The position numbers and the translations under genes are program-made. This document shows, piece after piece, positions 20,021-39,815 of a DNA stretch of 60,403 nucleotides. This stretch comes from a bacterium (lineage in GTDB: Bacteria; Patescibacteriota; Dojkabacteria; SC72). Positions within the stretch are counted from its first letter, which is position 1, and each line of letters begins with the position of its first letter. The notes beneath the pieces are model-generated. The model was given only the letters and a program-made list of their open reading frames with translations. It made no database searches and was not told the DNA's origin. The stretch covers positions 1-60,403 of the forward strand of contig JALHDC010000005.1 of NCBI GenBank assembly GCA_022840695.1. Direction: 5' to 3'.

Positions 20021-20094
20021 GGGGCGCTAGCTCATCCGGTTAGAGCAACTGCCTTTTAAGCAGTAGGTGCTGGGTCCGAGTCCCAGGCGCCTCA
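20021..20094 (+). tRNA. tRNA-Lys(TTT)
   Basis: GGGGCGC/GCGCCTC acceptor, ACTGC CTTTTAA GCAGT; T-loop reads TCCGAGT rather than TTCGAGT. Confidence 0.88.
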
Positions 20095-20122
20095 TATTCT
20101 AGTAATTATCTATTATATTATA

Positions 20123-20151
20123 TTGAATATAATAATTTCTTAATGTATAAT
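20123..20151 (+). promoter_or_regulatory. Sigma70-type promoter with no downstream plus-strand ORF
   Basis: TTGAAT (20123-20128), 17 bp, TATAAT (20146-20151). Confidence 0.55.
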
Positions 20152-20157
20152 CTAAAT

Positions 20158-20206
20158 AGTTAAGGCAACGGCGAGACAAAAAAGCTCCATGTTGCCTTCT
20201 TTTTTT
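20158..20206 (+). ncRNA. Candidate ~49-nt small RNA convergent with the DUF3800 gene
   Basis: AAGGCAACG/TGTTGCCTT stem, inner GAG/CTC, A-rich loop, then a T-tract reaching the DUF3800 stop; own promoter upstream. Confidence 0.45.
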
Positions 20207-20984
20207 ATTCAGGAATTATTGTAAATGATGAGATAGCTTTCAAAAGCTTTTTCTTTTCCTTCGTAGTATTCTCGGGTATTTTAAATTTTTTATTTTCTAA
20301 AATTTTCACCAACTTTTTCTCACAACTGTTTTCCGCATATTTTCTTCCATCTTTCTCTCTCATTTGACATGTCACTCCGTAAGCAAGAATATCTGCTAAT
20401 TGTTCTTCTATATCACCATTAGATTTATTTACAAAGGATATAGATGTTATTAGTTTTGACACATCAGCTCCAGATATTTTGAGCTCTGGTATACCATTTG
20501 ATTTAAAGTGATTTAATGCTTCGTGGTAATAATAATCTTTTTCGAGAGAGGATGCTTCTATAACGATTTTTCCAGTACAACCCTTGATGGATATAGTATG
20601 AATTATAAAATTTCGGAATAAGGATCTTGCTACAGTTCTTAGTTTTGTTTTTACAGACCAGTTTCTTTTTGAAACCTCGAACTTTTTCAATATTACAGGA
20701 AATATGACAATGGGTGCATAATTGAGAAGTTTAAAAAGATCAACATTGAATTCTTCTTTTGTTTTTAAATCTTTAAGGTTGTTAAATTGTCCGATACATT
20801 TTCCAATCTCTTGAGAGTGGAAAGTAATAGAATCAGAACCCCAATATTTGTATTTTATTTGTCCTGCAAGTTTATTAAGTTCAGTCCTTTTACTTTCGCG
20901 AATAGAACAACCTACGAGTATATAATACCCAATATTACCATTATGTTGACCAGTTTCATCAATATATAATCTATTAATTTCCAT
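20205..20984 (-). CDS. DUF3800 family protein (RNase H-like fold)
   Basis: N-terminal LYIDETG, central FHSQEI, C-terminal EQLADILAY. Confidence 0.85.
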   Translation of the reverse strand: MEINRLYIDETGQHNGNIGYYILVGCSIRESKRTELNKLAGQIKYKYWGSDSITFHSQEIGKCIGQFNNLKDLKTKEEFNVDLFKLLNYAPIVIFPVILKKFEVSKRNWSVKTKLRTVARSLFRNFIIHTISIKGCTGKIVIEASSLEKDYYYHEALNHFKSNGIPELKISGADVSKLITSISFVNKSNGDIEEQLADILAYGVTCQMREKDGRKYAENSCEKKLVKILENKKFKIPENTTKEKKKLLKAISSFTIIPE

Positions 20985-21004
20985 TTTAGGGGAGTCCTGC
21001 TAGT

Positions 21005-21063
21005 AAAAGAAAACGGAGGACATTCCCTTGGGACAAAACCTTTTGGTAGTTCCTCCATGGTGA
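21005..21063 (-). ncRNA. Candidate structured small RNA / terminated leader upstream of DUF3800
   Basis: AUGGAGGA...UCCUCCGU 8-bp closing stem around a 30-nt interior (ACC-AAAA-GGU, UCC-CAAG-GGA), then UUUCUUUU; 20 nt to the ATG. Confidence 0.55.
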
Positions 21064-21098
21064 TAACCTATTATCACATACAGTAATAATCCAGTCAA
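21060..21098 (-). promoter_or_regulatory. Promoter with overlapping inverted repeat for the sRNA-DUF3800 unit
   Basis: TTGACT (21098-21093), 17 bp, TG-T-GATAAT (21075-21070); GTGATAA-N4-TTATCAC at 21060-21077. Confidence 0.6.
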
Positions 21099-21108
21099 TG
21101 ATATTTAA

Positions 21109-22257
21109 TTATTTCAATATATCTTCCTCTCCACCTAATCTCCAATATGATACTCCTGCTATCTCATATTCTTTAGCAATATCTCTTCTCATCTGTACTC
21201 CCTTGTTATCTTGATAGTACATAATACATCGTTGACCATTCTCGCAACCAAATTCAGAATATCCCTCTCCAAGGTCTGATTTTAATGTACCATTAATATT
21301 AGGATTACTTAATATACTTTTTACACTAGTATATGTTAATGCTACAGTCCTATCTGATATCCACTCATATCCATATAGATGTACTCCTAACCATATCTTC
21401 TCTTTGGGTATATGTTTAATAGCATACTCTAATACCTGCCGTATCCAACTTACTGGACCAATAGGTCCAGGTACCTTTGAACTTTGTAATGTGTAATCAT
21501 ATGCCATTATCCTAACCTCATCTGCATACTTTGATATTTCAGCATACTCTTGTACACTTCTTGTATCTCGATGATCTTGATATGTAGCATTACTCCATTG
21601 TGCAAATACAGTGACAGAAAGTATCTTACTTCTTTTTCTTAATTCAGTGCTCAAATCCTTTAAGAAAAGCATATAGCTATCTTTTTGTTGAATACCAATT
21701 ATTTCATAATCCAAATCAATACCATCAAAATCATATTTTTCTATTTCACTCACTATCACTCCAATACCTTTTGTATATGCTTCCTTACTACTTAAATGAC
21801 TACTCATTGAACTTAAATCATATGATCCTACAGTTGGTATTACTCTAATATTATTTTCTTTGCAGTATGTTAAAAGCCTCTGTATATTTGCATCTGATAC
21901 TCCTCTGGATATAATATCCCCATTACTATTTATGGTGTACAGTACAGGATTAACAGTATTTATGATTCCTTTGTTTTCAATTAAACTCTCATATCCCAAA
22001 TCAAAAGCCCAATTAGGTATCCATCCTGACTCCTTAAGCTCATATATCTGTTCCTCTTCTCCTTGAATTTCTTCTTCATTTTGAATATTAGTATTACAAG
22101 AGGTACATGGTTGCTCAAGATCATTGCTTGAATATATATCTATTCTATTATCAATGGTGTTGTTTTTGCTATTTAGGAAAAGAAGTATTGAGGAAGAAGA
22201 AATCATTAATATTCCAATGATTATTCCAATTATGGACAGTATTCTAAGGGGCTTCAT
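21109..22257 (-). CDS. Glycoside hydrolase family 18 (chitinase/YaaH-like), N-terminal TM
   Basis: FDGIDLDYE (DxxDxDxE intact), IMAYDY, SYWRLG. Confidence 0.9.
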   Translation of the reverse strand: MKPLRILSIIGIIIGILMISSSSILLFLNSKNNTIDNRIDIYSSNDLEQPCTSCNTNIQNEEEIQGEEEQIYELKESGWIPNWAFDLGYESLIENKGIINTVNPVLYTINSNGDIISRGVSDANIQRLLTYCKENNIRVIPTVGSYDLSSMSSHLSSKEAYTKGIGVIVSEIEKYDFDGIDLDYEIIGIQQKDSYMLFLKDLSTELRKRSKILSVTVFAQWSNATYQDHRDTRSVQEYAEISKYADEVRIMAYDYTLQSSKVPGPIGPVSWIRQVLEYAIKHIPKEKIWLGVHLYGYEWISDRTVALTYTSVKSILSNPNINGTLKSDLGEGYSEFGCENGQRCIMYYQDNKGVQMRRDIAKEYEIAGVSYWRLGGEEDILK

Positions 22258-38487: not shown

Positions 38488-38575
38488 AGGCAGTTGTTGT
38501 ATACATTCTGGCATATTTTCAGAATTTATTCTATAATTGCAACTGCAAATTAGTAATATATTTAAAAGACTCATT

Positions 38576-39055
38576 ATGGATAATAGTTTTACAAAAAAGA
38601 TAGAAGAAGGTTTCTACAAGAAAAGACCTGATGTTAAGGTTGGAGATACTGTTAAATTACATCTTAAGATAAAGGAAGGGAGTAAGGAAAGAGTTCAGAT
38701 TTTTGAAGGTGTTGTAATATCATTAAAAGGTTCTGGGTTGAATAGGAACATTGTGGTGAGAAAAATATCCTACGGTGTTGGTGTAGAGAAGATTGTACCT
38801 TTACATACTCCGGTATTACAAAAGATAGAGGTTGTTAAGAGGGGAACTGTTGGGAGATCCAAACTCTACTACCTAAGGGATAGGGTTGGTAGAAAAGCTC
38901 TTAAGACTGGTGCCACAGAGGATATATATTTAACAGATGAAGTAGAGGTTCCCGTAACAGGAGAAGAAATTGCTGTTGAAGAGGAAGTAACTGAAGTAGA
39001 AGAGAGTACAGAAGAGAAGGTTGAGGAAGCAGTTGAAGAGAAAGAGGAATCTTAG
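38576..39055 (+). CDS. rplS: 50S ribosomal protein L19 with acidic C-terminal tail
   Basis: PDVKVGDTVKLH, RVQIFEGVVI, VRKISYGVGVE, KLYYLRDR; start placed at MDNS (38576). Confidence 0.96.
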   Translation: MDNSFTKKIEEGFYKKRPDVKVGDTVKLHLKIKEGSKERVQIFEGVVISLKGSGLNRNIVVRKISYGVGVEKIVPLHTPVLQKIEVVKRGTVGRSKLYYLRDRVGRKALKTGATEDIYLTDEVEVPVTGEEIAVEEEVTEVEESTEEKVEEAVEEKEES

Positions 39056-39076
39056 TATATTGAATATATTACTCTT

Positions 39077-39150
39077 GCAGGAGTAGTTCAATTGGTTAGA
39101 ATATCTGTTTTCCAAACAGAGGGTTGCGGGTTCGAGTCCCGTCTCCTGCT
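39077..39150 (+). tRNA. tRNA-Gly(TCC)
   Basis: GCAGGAG/CTCCTGC acceptor, TCTGT TTTCCAA ACAGA, U73. Confidence 0.95.
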
Positions 39151-39187
39151 CAGATATGAAATTCTCATTAAAGTATTAGATAATTAT

Positions 39188-39217
39188 TGGACAGAGCAAT
39201 TATAAAGATGTTATACT
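39188..39217 (+). promoter_or_regulatory. Promoter for the hairpin-NYN unit
   Basis: TGGACA (39188-39193), 18 bp, TG-T-TATACT (39212-39217). Confidence 0.55.
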
Positions 39218-39223
39218 CTGTGT

Positions 39224-39269
39224 AATAACCGCCTGCACCAGATTCTTCTGACAGTGCAGGCATTTTTTT
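39224..39269 (+). ncRNA. Candidate ~46-nt structured small RNA / terminated leader upstream of NYN
   Basis: GCCUGCAC-CAGA-UUCU-UCUG-(ACA bulge)-GUGCAGGC-A-U7; ends 6 nt before the NYN ATG. Confidence 0.55.
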
Positions 39270-39275
39270 ATACCT

Positions 39276-39815
39276 ATGTTTCCAAAAGAAAAAGTAAAAA
39301 TATTTTTAGATGGTAGTAATTTCTATTACTACTGCAAAGATATTGGGATACCAGCATATCCTAATTTTGATTTTGAAAAGCTAATTAATATACTAGCAAA
39401 TAGTCGTTTAATAAAAGAAAAATCATACTATGTAGGTGTTGTTAGAGGGAAACCCTCTGATAGTAAAAGCATGAAAATGATGGCAAAACAAATGAGTCTC
39501 TTTTCATATCTTAAGAAAAACGAATGGAAAATTAACAAAGGGTATCTATTAAAAACAAAGGGAAAACATCACGAAAAAGGAGTTGATGTTAAATTAGCAT
39601 TGGATTTAGCACTTGGGGCTGTAGATGATCTATACGATGTCGCCATTTTAATTTCTTCTGATACCGATATCCTACCAGCGGTAGAAGAAGCAAAACTCAG
39701 AGGAAAGAAAGTTGAATATATCGGATTTTCTGACAACCCAAGCAAAGCTATGCTGAATAAGTGCGATCGAAGTATGCTACTTGGAAAAAAGATTTTGAAA
39801 AGTTGTGTGATCTAG
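39276..39815 (+). CDS. NYN (LabA/DUF88, PIN-like) domain ribonuclease
   Basis: IFLDGSNF, EKGVDVKLALDL, LISSDTDI, GKKVEYIGF; catalytic Asp residues intact. Confidence 0.92.
   Translation: MFPKEKVKIFLDGSNFYYYCKDIGIPAYPNFDFEKLINILANSRLIKEKSYYVGVVRGKPSDSKSMKMMAKQMSLFSYLKKNEWKINKGYLLKTKGKHHEKGVDVKLALDLALGAVDDLYDVAILISSDTDILPAVEEAKLRGKKVEYIGFSDNPSKAMLNKCDRSMLLGKKILKSCVI

What the first reader, a model, noticed from the sequence alone, without database searches (positions are those of the whole stretch)
20021..39815. Recurrent architecture: tRNA / promoter / short structured RNA / terminator / lone RNase-fold gene (candidate RNA-antitoxin modules)
Two unrelated nuclease folds, DUF3800 (20205-20984, minus) and NYN (39276-39815, plus), share one layout. 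Each lies beside a tRNA and has no adjacent small protein antitoxin. Each has a sigma70 promoter, a GC-rich hairpin in an AT-rich genome, and a U-tract ending 20 nt and 6 nt before the ATG, so the ORF would be expressed only by read-through. Established: type III TA systems (ToxIN, AbiQ, CptIN, TenpIN) use promoter-RNA antitoxin-terminator-RNase. DUF3800-associated RNA motifs have been predicted computationally without a function. Inference: these are single-copy, type III-like RNA-neutralised nucleases, possibly anti-phage.
Basis: partly seen in the sequence, partly recalled or inferred. Interest (0 to 1): 0.85.

Follow-up and report, generated by a model that had tools for sequence, protein, structure and literature searches.

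The report
Conserved hairpin RNA before NYN nuclease
One of the two loci is real and general: across the ultra-small Patescibacteria, a strong promoter makes a roughly 50-base hairpin RNA that ends in its own terminator right in front of an NYN nuclease gene, an RNA-nuclease pair I found in no RNA library or paper searched; the DUF3800 locus is an ordinary gene that sits behind its neighbour's terminator.

Summary
Only the NYN half is a recurrent architecture.

**NYN locus (39188-39815).** It belongs to a module found in nearly all NYN homologues across Patescibacteria:
- a consensus promoter, then 6-8 nt, then R-CUAA(A)AC;
- a GC hairpin with a conserved C mismatch, then a U tract, then 5-35 nt to the NYN ATG.

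A hairpin plus T tract precedes the start in 74/80 homologues, against 30/358 other ORFs in the same loci. The stem covaries. A covariance model hits only next to NYN genes in about 0.95 Mb, including 10 sites outside its training set. Rfam 15 has no match and I found no paper.

In the window NYN can be transcribed only by read-through. In other lineages NYN has its own leaderless-type -10, and in one locus the RNA gene is convergent. So the RNA is a stand-alone product. I infer that it is a specific ligand or inhibitor of NYN.

The pair is chromosomal, co-diverges with its protein and is almost absent from viral contigs. An ancient housekeeping RNA-nuclease pair is therefore likelier than a mobile anti-phage toxin-antitoxin module.

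**DUF3800 locus.**
- Its hairpin is not significant (z -1.1).
- It is absent from homologues (3/75).
- It is best read as the GH18 gene's terminator.

tRNA adjacency is not conserved for either family.

The parts
39188..39217 (+). Promoter of the hairpin RNA: -35 TGGACA (39188-39193), TG (39209-39210), -10 TATACT (39212-39217).
   Evidence: and the sequence. The same position holds TTGACA-16/17-TAnnAT in most homologues and an extended -10, TGnTATAAT, in Dojkabacteria relatives.
39222..39269 (+). Predicted ~48-nt hairpin RNA. The start is inferred at about 39222-39224, 5-7 nt after the -10. A 5' tail GUAAUAACC is followed by the hairpin and the U tract.
   Evidence: Model R1 hit at 39220-39267, 25.9 bits, E 0.0015, the only hit in the window below E 0.1. 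Alignment A4. The transcript ends are inferred, not measured.
39231..39261 (+). Hairpin. Outer stem 39231-39238 with 39254-39261; inner stem 39239-39242 with 39247-39250; loop UUCU; 3-nt bulge ACA (39251-39253).
   Evidence: dG -19.1 kcal/mol, z -5.6, 0 of 200 shuffles fold as well. Compensatory changes occur in Dojkabacteria relatives and across the phylum.
39263..39269 (+). U7 tract of the intrinsic terminator. It ends 6 nt before the NYN ATG.
   Evidence: Sequence. A U tract is present in nearly all homologues.
39276..39815 (+). NYN (LabA-type, PF01936) nuclease gene, 179 aa, with its acidic active-site residues intact.
   Evidence: Pfam 69.7 bits. D12, D104, D110, D129 and D131 are invariant in A1. 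AlphaFold2 model pLDDT 92. Best structural match 2QIP, TM 0.70/0.77.
39077..39151 (+). tRNA-Gly(UCC), an upstream neighbour and not part of the module. The hairpin is also the first terminator downstream of rplS and this tRNA.
   Evidence: A tRNA lies within 300 nt in only 7/80 NYN loci. Five Dojkabacteria relatives have other upstream genes.
20205..20984 (-). DUF3800 gene, 259 aa, RNase H2-like fold, with DE ... E ... QxxD motifs present.
   Evidence: Pfam 31.8 bits. D9, E10, E143, Q195 invariant and D198 in at least 90% of sequences in A2. AlphaFold2 model pLDDT 93. Foldseek match to RNase HII 1EKE, E 5e-5.
21005..21058 (-). Weak hairpin (stem AUGGAGGA with UCCUCCGU closing a 30-nt loop) and a U-rich tract. 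Most likely the terminator of the upstream GH18 gene (21109-22257).
   Evidence: dG -15.5, z -1.1. The whole leader has z -0.7. It is not conserved in six relatives or in 75 homologues. Relatives have the upstream gene's terminator at a comparable position.
21070..21098 (-). Promoter-like site TTGACT-17-GATAAT, between the GH18 stop codon and the hairpin.
   Evidence: It is a consensus match only. Relatives instead carry TATAAT 5-9 nt before the ATG.
20162..20206 (+). Hairpin (20162-20198) and T run (20200-20206) downstream of tRNA-Lys. Probably the tRNA-Lys terminator. It abuts the DUF3800 stop codon on the other strand.

Best explanation
**NYN locus.** This is one copy of a phylum-wide RNA-nuclease gene pair.

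Shown by comparison:
- A sigma-70-type promoter starts transcription 6-8 nt before a conserved 5' tail (R-CUAA(A)AC; GUAAUAAC in this lineage).
- The RNA folds into a GC-rich two-part hairpin with a conserved mismatch or bulge on its 3' side.
- It ends in a U tract, which makes a self-contained transcription unit of about 45-55 nt.
- A catalytically intact LabA-type NYN nuclease gene follows directly.

Follows directly from the window's sequence: the U tract ends 6 nt before the ATG, so there is no room for a second promoter. NYN mRNA can arise only by terminator read-through. The cell would then make much hairpin RNA and little nuclease.

Shown in other lineages: NYN has its own leaderless-type -10 downstream of the terminator, and in one genome the RNA gene is convergent. 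The hairpin RNA is therefore a product in its own right.

Inferred: the RNA is a specific ligand of NYN, most likely an inhibitor or decoy that keeps the nuclease in check. Its conserved tail and mismatch would be the recognition features. It looks like an ancient, vertically inherited, housekeeping-type pair rather than a mobile anti-phage module.

**DUF3800 locus.** This is not the same thing. It is a lone RNase H2-like gene whose upstream hairpin is best read as the terminator of the preceding GH18 gene.
For: **Layout and frequency**
- The layout is seen in the upstream regions of 80 homologues from GTDB genomes.
- A hairpin plus T tract ends within 45 nt of the start in 74/80 NYN genes, against 30/358 other ORFs. 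With a promoter just upstream the counts are 56/80 against 2/358.

**RNA structure**
- In 77 distinct sequences the stem is 86% paired, against 67% in shuffles.
- The covariation score is 0.534, against 0.18 in shuffles and at most 0.135 when the partners are slid.
- Eight of nine pairs show changes on both sides.
- Column pair 19/46 is unpaired in 58/77 sequences.

**Specificity of model R1**
- One hit in the 60-kb window.
- One strong hit in 414 kb of DUF3800 loci, and it lies before an NYN gene.
- Extra hits in the NYN loci lie before a second NYN paralogue, as a tandem copy, 186 nt upstream of NYN, or convergent at the NYN 3' end.
- Five Dojkabacteria relatives outside the training set all hit. 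They carry compensatory changes and have different upstream genes.

**Evidence for a stand-alone RNA**
- A perfect TATAAT ends 6-8 nt before the ATG in 10/17 class B/C loci, against 6/92 background ORFs.
- L072 has its own promoter on the opposite strand.

**Nuclease intact:**

**Evidence against a mobile element**
- RNA classes track the protein clades, 56/74 against 29% expected by chance.
- The neighbours are diverse and mostly housekeeping.
- Only 2 distant relatives occur in the viral contigs.

**DUF3800:**
Against: - No transcript data exist. The start site, the 3' end and the termination efficiency are all inferred from sequence.
- Binding or inhibition of NYN by the RNA is untested.
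- In 80 of 81 cases the RNA lies 5' of NYN on the same strand. A purely cis-acting leader would predict exactly that.
- A subclass has a leader about 55 nt longer, often with a small ORF that ends at the UAA just before the hairpin. That looks like classical attenuation.
- The second promoter in classes B and C is a sequence inference only.
- The sample is the 80 best of 423 relatives, so the frequency of the module in more distant NYN genes is unknown.
- In the window the hairpin is also the natural terminator of rplS and tRNA-Gly.
Confidence: 0.5

Rival explanations
1. **Cis-acting leader only.** The hairpin is a promoter-proximal attenuator, or a 5' stabiliser, that sets or autoregulates NYN expression. 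NYN might for example cleave or bind its own leader, as RNase III does with the rnc leader. The short terminated RNA would be a by-product with no function in trans.
For: - The hairpin lies immediately 5' of NYN on the same strand in all but one locus, 5-35 nt from the ATG.
- In the window and in classes A, D and E there is no room for another promoter.
- In the subclass with a longer leader, 6 of 9 sequences have a small ORF that ends at the conserved UAA, where a ribosome would cover the 5' arm of the terminator.
Against: - In the main class the transcript starts 6-8 nt before the tail, so no alternative antiterminator structure can form.
- Classes B and C have a leaderless-type -10 downstream of the terminator, so that mRNA would lack the hairpin.
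- In L072 the RNA unit is convergent.
- A near-consensus promoter feeding a strong terminator is wasteful if the short RNA has no function.
Confidence: 0.27
2. **The reader's reading.** Both loci are single-copy type III-like toxin-antitoxin or abortive-infection modules. The RNA neutralises a toxic RNase, which is released on phage infection.
For: - The operon layout is that of ToxIN (established knowledge), and for NYN it is conserved.
- NYN matches the PADLOC candidate HEC-09, E 4.8e-16.
- Distant DUF3800 homologues are often embedded in type I restriction-modification operons: N6_Mtase 10, HsdM_N 7, Methylase_S 6 and HsdR-type 6-8 of 94 neighbours.
Against: - There are no tandem repeats.
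- The toxin folds are NYN and RNase H2-like, not ToxN/AbiQ.
- No ToxI or other antitoxin RNA family matches in Rfam.
- DUF3800 has no conserved RNA.
- The NYN pair co-diverges with its RNA and sits among housekeeping genes.
- NYN relatives are nearly absent from viral contigs.
- HEC-09 gave no defence against the phages tested (bioRxiv 10.1101/2024.01.29.577857).
Confidence: 0.12
3. **Chance or ordinary terminators.** Both hairpins are simply the terminators of the upstream genes (GH18; rplS and tRNA-Gly), and the promoter-like sites are AT-rich noise.
For: - Promoter-like sites are at shuffle level.
- The DUF3800 hairpin has z -1.1 and is not conserved.
- Dojkabacteria relatives show the upstream gene's terminator before DUF3800.
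- The NYN hairpin is the first terminator after tRNA-Gly.
Against: For NYN this reading is excluded:
- the promoter precedes the hairpin at a fixed spacing, whatever the upstream gene;
- sequence features beyond what a terminator needs are conserved across the phylum;
- the association with NYN is exclusive.
Confidence: 0.06
4. **Cofactor or scaffold.** The hairpin RNA is a cofactor of NYN, forming a ribonucleoprotein that gives the nuclease its substrate specificity. It would not be an inhibitor.
For: - The RNA-protein gene linkage is exclusive and the two are inherited together.
- NYN here is a bare catalytic domain with no extra RNA-binding domain.
Against: - The single-stranded tail is conserved, not variable, so it offers no guide-like region.
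- The RNA is very small.
- No precedent for this is known to me.
Confidence: 0.05

Closest known systems
Type III toxin-antitoxin systems (ToxIN, CptIN, TenpIN, AbiQ/antiQ)
   Same: The layout is promoter, non-coding RNA, Rho-independent terminator, then a ribonuclease ORF on the same strand, and the terminator sets an excess of RNA over protein. No protein partner is involved.
   Different: - The RNA is one hairpin, not tandem 34-36-nt repeats.
- The nuclease has an NYN (PIN-like) fold, not a ToxN/AbiQ fold.
- The pair is chromosomal, spans a phylum and is inherited with its protein, rather than patchy on plasmids or phages.
- Neutralisation and toxicity are untested.
Autoregulated RNase leaders (the rnc leader cleaved by RNase III; the rne 5' UTR)
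   Same: A structured hairpin lies at the 5' end of the nuclease's own transcript, and the nuclease could recognise it.
   Different: - Here the hairpin is a full intrinsic terminator with its own promoter 6-8 nt upstream.
- In some lineages it is uncoupled from the NYN mRNA, either by a separate leaderless-type promoter or by a convergent orientation.
DUF3800-associated RNA motifs, with drum and skipping-rope (Weinberg et al. 2017, PMC5737381)
   Same: These are conserved structured RNAs, several ending in terminators, tied to one nuclease-like protein family with no known function.
   Different: - None of those motifs matches in the window or in 20 loci of this DUF3800 subfamily.
- The RNA found here belongs to NYN, not DUF3800, and is much simpler.
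LabA-type NYN proteins (PF01936): VPA0982 (PDB 2QIP), the PADLOC candidate HEC-09, the CRISPR-associated NYN of Bacteroides fragilis
   Same: They share the fold and the acidic active site. The B. fragilis enzyme is a Mn2+-dependent single-stranded RNase (bioRxiv 10.1101/2024.04.08.588522).
   Different: I found no report of a dedicated adjacent RNA for any of them. The Patescibacteria clade is a stand-alone 175-190-aa domain.

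Membership tests
Type III toxin-antitoxin | Promoter, RNA gene, intrinsic terminator and nuclease ORF on one strand. | tested here: met
   This is met for NYN in the window and in 74/80 homologues. For DUF3800 the elements are present in the window only, and the layout appears in 3/75 homologues.
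Type III toxin-antitoxin | The antitoxin RNA is made of tandem direct repeats that the toxin processes. | tested here: not met
   No tandem repeat lies in either leader. The RNA is a single hairpin. One locus, L033, has two full promoter-plus-hairpin copies.
Type III toxin-antitoxin | The toxin is of the ToxN/AbiQ/CptN/TenpN endoribonuclease type. | tested here: not met
   Pfam gives NYN and DUF3800 only. PADLOC gives HEC-09 and NYN and no type III model. The folds match 2QIP and RNase HII.
Type III toxin-antitoxin | The RNA binds and neutralises a growth-inhibiting toxin. | not testable with these tools
   This needs expression, binding and RNase assays.
Rfam families, including ToxI and the DUF3800 motifs | A covariance-model match to a curated family. 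| tested here: not met
   Only tRNAs reach gathering score in the window. Nothing relevant appears at E up to 10 in either locus, in 20 plus 6 NYN loci, or in 20 DUF3800 loci.
DUF3800-associated RNA (any new motif) | A conserved, covarying RNA in the flanks of homologues. | tested here: not met
   The upstream regions of 75 homologues are heterogeneous. Six Dojkabacteria-level relatives share no structure with the window. Only upstream regions and Rfam were examined in depth.
NYN / LabA-like nuclease (PF01936) | A Pfam match above the cut-off, conserved acidic residues and a PIN-like fold. | tested here: met
   The Pfam score is 69.7 bits against 24.2. D12, D104, D110, D129 and D131 are invariant. 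The model matches 2QIP with TM 0.70/0.77.
DUF3800 (PF12686), RNase H2-like | A Pfam match, an N-terminal DE motif, a C-terminal QxxD motif and an RNase H2-like fold. | tested here: met
   The Pfam score is 31.8 bits against 21. D9-E10 and Q195-x-x-D198 are conserved. The model matches 1EKE at E 5e-5, with a modest TM of 0.48/0.55. The motifs are as described in PMC7736814.
Intrinsic (Rho-independent) terminator | A GC-rich hairpin directly followed by a U tract. | tested here: met
   NYN has an 8+4-bp hairpin of dG -19.1 followed by U7. DUF3800 has a weaker form, an 8-bp stem closing a 30-nt loop followed by UUUUCUUUU. Termination efficiency was not measured.
Riboswitch or classical attenuator leader | An alternative antiterminator structure or a ligand-binding aptamer upstream of the terminator. 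| tested here: not met
   In the main class the -10 box ends 6-8 nt before the tail, so there is no upstream RNA to compete with the hairpin. A subclass with a 55-nt leader and a small ORF remains open.

The most novel reading that the evidence does not exclude
The hairpin RNA is a stoichiometric RNA inhibitor of the NYN ribonuclease. That would make this a new, ancient class of type III-like RNA-protein toxin-antitoxin (or RNase-brake) system, with a single-hairpin antitoxin and an NYN-fold toxin. It would be fixed in the chromosome across the Candidate Phyla Radiation and would release RNase activity when transcription of the short-lived or titratable RNA falls.
Probability: 0.3. Interest if true: 0.85.

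Novelty: new variant of a known kind. Interest (0 to 1): 0.7.

Why it matters
- Patescibacteria have tiny genomes and few known regulatory RNAs. A promoter-to-terminator RNA unit that is conserved, covaries and is tied exclusively to one nuclease across the phylum is a strong candidate for a new RNA family with a defined protein partner.
- If the RNA restrains the nuclease, the type III toxin-antitoxin principle would extend to a new toxin fold, a minimal single-hairpin antitoxin and a vertically inherited, housekeeping setting.
- If the RNA is a leader, this is an unusually minimal way to control a nuclease.
- Either way it gives LabA-type NYN proteins, whose bacterial function is largely unknown, a concrete RNA ligand to test.
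- The negative result for DUF3800 removes a false parallel.

Tried and rejected
- **Rfam.** I searched at gathering score and at relaxed E-values in the window and in 46 loci. Only tRNA, tmRNA, one abiF RNA and one sub-threshold T-box matched. No family covers either leader.
- **Tandem repeats.** None lies in either leader.
- **tRNA linkage.** It is not conserved.
- **A conserved protein partner next to NYN.** The 145 neighbours hit 145 Pfam families with no recurrent partner.
- **A conserved RNA upstream of DUF3800.** The regions are heterogeneous. Close relatives have an RRM-protein gene terminator and then a leaderless-type -10.
- **A hairpin repeat upstream of some DUF3800 genes** (CUGGAUUCCCGCC..GCGGGAAUGACA). 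It is a dispersed repeat that also occurs in NYN loci, so it is not specific to DUF3800.
- **Phage origin.** Only 2 distant NYN relatives occur in 2.9 million viral contigs, and neither has the motif.
- **Sequence search of solved structures.** It returned only 2QIP, of unknown function, for NYN, and nothing for DUF3800.
- **Literature.** Searches on NYN, Patescibacteria, type III systems and RNA motifs found no description of this module.

Full report
**1. What is in the window**

The organism is a member of Candidatus Dojkabacteria (Patescibacteria/CPR), judged from the closest proteins. The window has 33% G+C.

*Locus A.*
- A 259-aa DUF3800 ORF lies at 20205-20984 on the minus strand (PF12686).
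- tRNA-Lys (20020-20095, plus strand) is convergent with it. The tRNA lies beyond the gene's 3' end and has its own hairpin and T run (20162-20206).
- The gene's upstream region is 20985-21108, directly after a GH18 gene (21109-22257, minus strand).
- That region holds a promoter-like TTGACT-17-GATAAT (21098-21070), a weak hairpin (21013-21058) and a U-rich tract that ends 20 nt before the ATG.

*Locus B.*
- The gene order is rplS (38537-39055), tRNA-Gly (39077-39151), then the elements below.
- TGGACA-18-TATACT with a TG lies at 39188-39217.
- A hairpin lies at 39231-39261 and a U7 tract at 39263-39269.
- Six nt later comes the ATG of a 179-aa NYN ORF (39276-39815).

**2. Is it more than chance within the window?**

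- Promoter-like sites occur at the shuffle rate, 44 against 49.9 and 51 against 54.6.
- The NYN hairpin is exceptional: dG -19.1 kcal/mol, z -5.6, with 0 of 200 shuffles folding as well.
- The DUF3800 hairpin is not: dG -15.5, z -1.1, and z -0.7 for the whole leader.
- Neither leader has tandem repeats.
- Rfam finds only tRNAs, even at E up to 10. No ToxI-like family and no DUF3800 motif matches.

**3. Comparative test for NYN**

A profile of 26 homologues retrieved 423 relatives in GTDB species genomes. I examined the best 80 with their flanks. They carry labels from many Patescibacteria groups:
- Dojkabacteria;
- Moranbacteria, Kuenenbacteria, Magasanikbacteria and Falkowbacteria;
- Saccharibacteria;
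- Nealsonbacteria, Wildermuthbacteria and Gribaldobacteria;
- Daviesbacteria, Curtissbacteria and Roizmanbacteria.

Almost every homologue shows the same layout:
- TTGACA-16/17-TAnnAT;
- 6-8 nt later, R-CUAA(A)AC;
- a GC-rich hairpin of dG -14 to -27;
- a U tract, then 5-35 nt to the ATG.

| Feature | NYN genes | Other ORFs in the same loci |
|---|---|---|
| Hairpin plus T tract ending within 45 nt of the start | 74/80 | 30/358 |
| The same, with a 10/12-or-better promoter just upstream | 56/80 | 2/358 |

An alignment of 77 distinct RNAs (A4) supports the stem:
- 86% of cells are paired, against 67% in shuffles.
- The covariation score is 0.534, against 0.18 in shuffles and at most 0.135 with slid partners.
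- Eight of nine pairs show changes on both sides.

Several features go beyond what a terminator needs:
- The 5' tail is nearly invariant.
- Column pair 19/46 is unpaired in 58/77 sequences.
- The hairpin has a two-part shape: outer stem, internal loop or 3' bulge, inner stem, often a tetraloop.

**4. Specificity**

I built a covariance model, R1, from A4.
- It gives one hit in the whole 60-kb window, at 39220-39267 (25.9 bits; the next best is 16.5).
- In 414 kb of DUF3800 loci it gives one strong hit, which lies in front of a frameshifted NYN gene that happened to be there (L145).
- In the NYN loci every strong extra hit is again next to NYN:
  - before a second paralogue (L053);
  - as a tandem second copy (L033);
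  - 186 nt upstream, with an insertion in between (L018);
  - convergent at the NYN 3' end, with its own promoter (L072).
- Five further Dojkabacteria relatives were fetched afterwards. They have different upstream genes and no tRNA. All carry an extended -10 (TGnTATAAT) and the window-type hairpin. L172 alone has three double compensatory changes. All are hit by R1.

That makes ten confirmations outside the training set. Rfam has no match in 26 of these loci, at gathering or relaxed thresholds. Five literature searches found no description.

**5. Leader or separate RNA?**

In the window and in RNA classes A, D and E, the U tract lies 5-23 nt from the ATG. NYN must then be transcribed by read-through.

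In classes B and C (17 loci, Paceibacteria-type and Microgenomates-type labels) the spacing is a constant 30-33 nt.
- A perfect TATAAT ends 6-8 nt before the ATG in 10 of the 17 loci.
- The same is true of only 6 of 92 other ORFs.
- This is the signature of a leaderless mRNA promoter downstream of the terminator.

Together with the convergent case L072, this shows that the hairpin unit is a transcription unit of its own. Its link to NYN does not depend on being part of the NYN mRNA.

In the opposite direction, a subclass has a leader 55 nt longer. In 6 of 9 of these sequences a small ORF ends at the conserved UAA just before the hairpin. That arrangement would suit translation-coupled attenuation, and I could not resolve it.

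**6. Mobile defence module or housekeeping pair?**

- RNA sequence classes follow the NYN protein clades: the nearest protein neighbour has the same RNA class in 56/74 cases, against 29% expected by chance.
- Neighbouring genes are not conserved and are mostly housekeeping, such as tRNA synthetases, EF4, SecA, ligase and ABC transporters.
- Only two distant relatives occur in 2.9 million viral contigs, and both lack the motif.
- The protein keeps the invariant acidic residues D12, D104, D110, D129 and D131. Its model matches the LabA-type NYN structure 2QIP, TM 0.70/0.77.
- It also matches the PADLOC candidate HEC-09. That candidate gave no protection against the phages tested in the study that proposed it.
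- A CRISPR-associated NYN is a Mn2+-dependent single-stranded RNase.

I therefore favour an old, vertically inherited RNA-nuclease pair in which the abundant hairpin RNA is a specific ligand of NYN, most likely an inhibitor. Binding and inhibition are inference.

**7. Comparative test for DUF3800**

- Eighty metagenomic homologues and five Dojkabacteria-level relatives show no common upstream element.
- Only 3 of 75 have a terminator-like hairpin close to the start, which is below the background rate.
- None of 20 loci matches an Rfam DUF3800 motif.
- In three of the four close relatives looked up, the upstream gene encodes an RRM protein. That gene's own terminator lies about 80 nt before the DUF3800 ATG, and a TATAAT lies 5-9 nt before the ATG.
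- The simplest reading of the window's hairpin is therefore the terminator of the GH18 gene.

The protein itself is a good DUF3800: it has the DE and QxxD motifs, and its model matches RNase HII, as reported for retron-linked DUF3800 (PMC7736814).

A real lead for a defence role is that distant homologues are often embedded in type I restriction-modification operons. The window copy is not in such a setting, and no RNA is involved.

**8. Comparison with known systems, and verdict**

The NYN module works like a type III toxin-antitoxin operon in its layout. It fails three of that family's defining features (repeats, toxin fold, RNA family), and its key feature, neutralisation, could not be tested. 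It should not be filed as a member. It also resembles autoregulated RNase leaders, but in some lineages it is uncoupled from the mRNA.

I rate it a new variant of a known kind (an RNA paired with a nuclease) and a credible new RNA family. The DUF3800 half of the finding, the tRNA link and the 'two folds, one architecture' claim are not supported.

Noticed in passing
L035, L039, L047, L053 (two copies), L054, L070, L078, L080: about 100 nt upstream of NYN: A subclass of the module has its promoter about 55 nt further upstream. In 6 of 9 sequences a small ORF (for example MVINEETPLFY, MDEIPLFC, MGETPSFY) ends exactly at the UAA of the conserved CUAA tail. A ribosome stopping there would cover the 5' arm of the terminator.
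   Followed up: partly
L072:1801-1900 (minus strand): In this Roizmanbacteria-labelled genome the hairpin RNA unit, with its own TTGACA-17-TACTAT promoter, is convergent with NYN and abuts its stop codon. NYN itself follows lepA with no motif upstream.
   Followed up: yes
Class B/C NYN loci, for example L043, L045, L056-L058, L060, L062, L064, L066, L075: A perfect TATAAT ends 6-8 nt before the NYN ATG, which points to a leaderless-type promoter. It lies at a constant 30-33 nt after the hairpin. The counts are 10/17 loci against 6/92 background ORFs.
   Followed up: yes
L033:2678-2724 and 2916-2963; L053:2931-2981 and 6133-6183; L145:4751-5370: L033 has a tandem duplication of the whole promoter-plus-hairpin unit. 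L053 has two NYN paralogues, each with its own hairpin unit. L145 has an apparently frameshifted NYN gene that still carries the hairpin unit.
   Followed up: partly
DUF3800 loci L096, L100, L101, L107, L110, L117, L120-L123, L130-L133 and others: Many distant DUF3800 homologues (36-44% identity) sit directly after or between type I restriction-modification genes (hsdM, hsdS, hsdR). This suggests a defence-island role for that subfamily. The window copy is not in such a context.
   Followed up: partly
L162:2625-3000, L165:2622-3000, L166:101-479: In three Dojkabacteria relatives the DUF3800 gene follows an 84-aa RRM_1 RNA-binding protein gene, with a constant 121-124-nt spacer and a TATAAT 5-9 nt before the ATG.
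   Followed up: partly
window 39858-40618: Directly downstream of NYN lies a 184-aa ORF with no Pfam match, followed by a 67-aa Xre-type HTH gene that starts 3 nt after it ends. This could be a toxin-antitoxin-like or regulator pair. It is not conserved next to NYN in relatives.
   Followed up: no
window 20912-21058 (minus strand): A 48-aa ORF starts at the AUG inside the DUF3800 leader hairpin (AUGGAGGA) and overlaps the DUF3800 start in another frame. I found no evidence that it is real.
   Followed up: no
L019:1722, L080:1313, L095:137, L107:2938, L132/L134/L135:2872 and 2904, L156/L157/L160:4161 (minus strand): A dispersed hairpin repeat of about 26-30 nt (CUGGAUUCCCGCC..GCGGGAAUGACA) occurs in several Patescibacteria contigs, sometimes as two tandem copies in front of DUF3800. 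It also occurs elsewhere, so it is not specific to that gene.
   Followed up: partly
L020:6052-6087 (minus strand); L042:3-235 (minus strand): Rfam finds an abiF RNA above gathering score (45.3 bits against 37) about 2.5 kb from an NYN gene. It also finds a T-box leader below gathering score (60.5 bits against 93) beside another.
   Followed up: no
L028, L033, L038: about 150 nt upstream of NYN: A small ORF with a CEICG motif (zinc-ribbon-like) runs into the promoter of the hairpin unit in three Moranbacteria-type loci.
   Followed up: no
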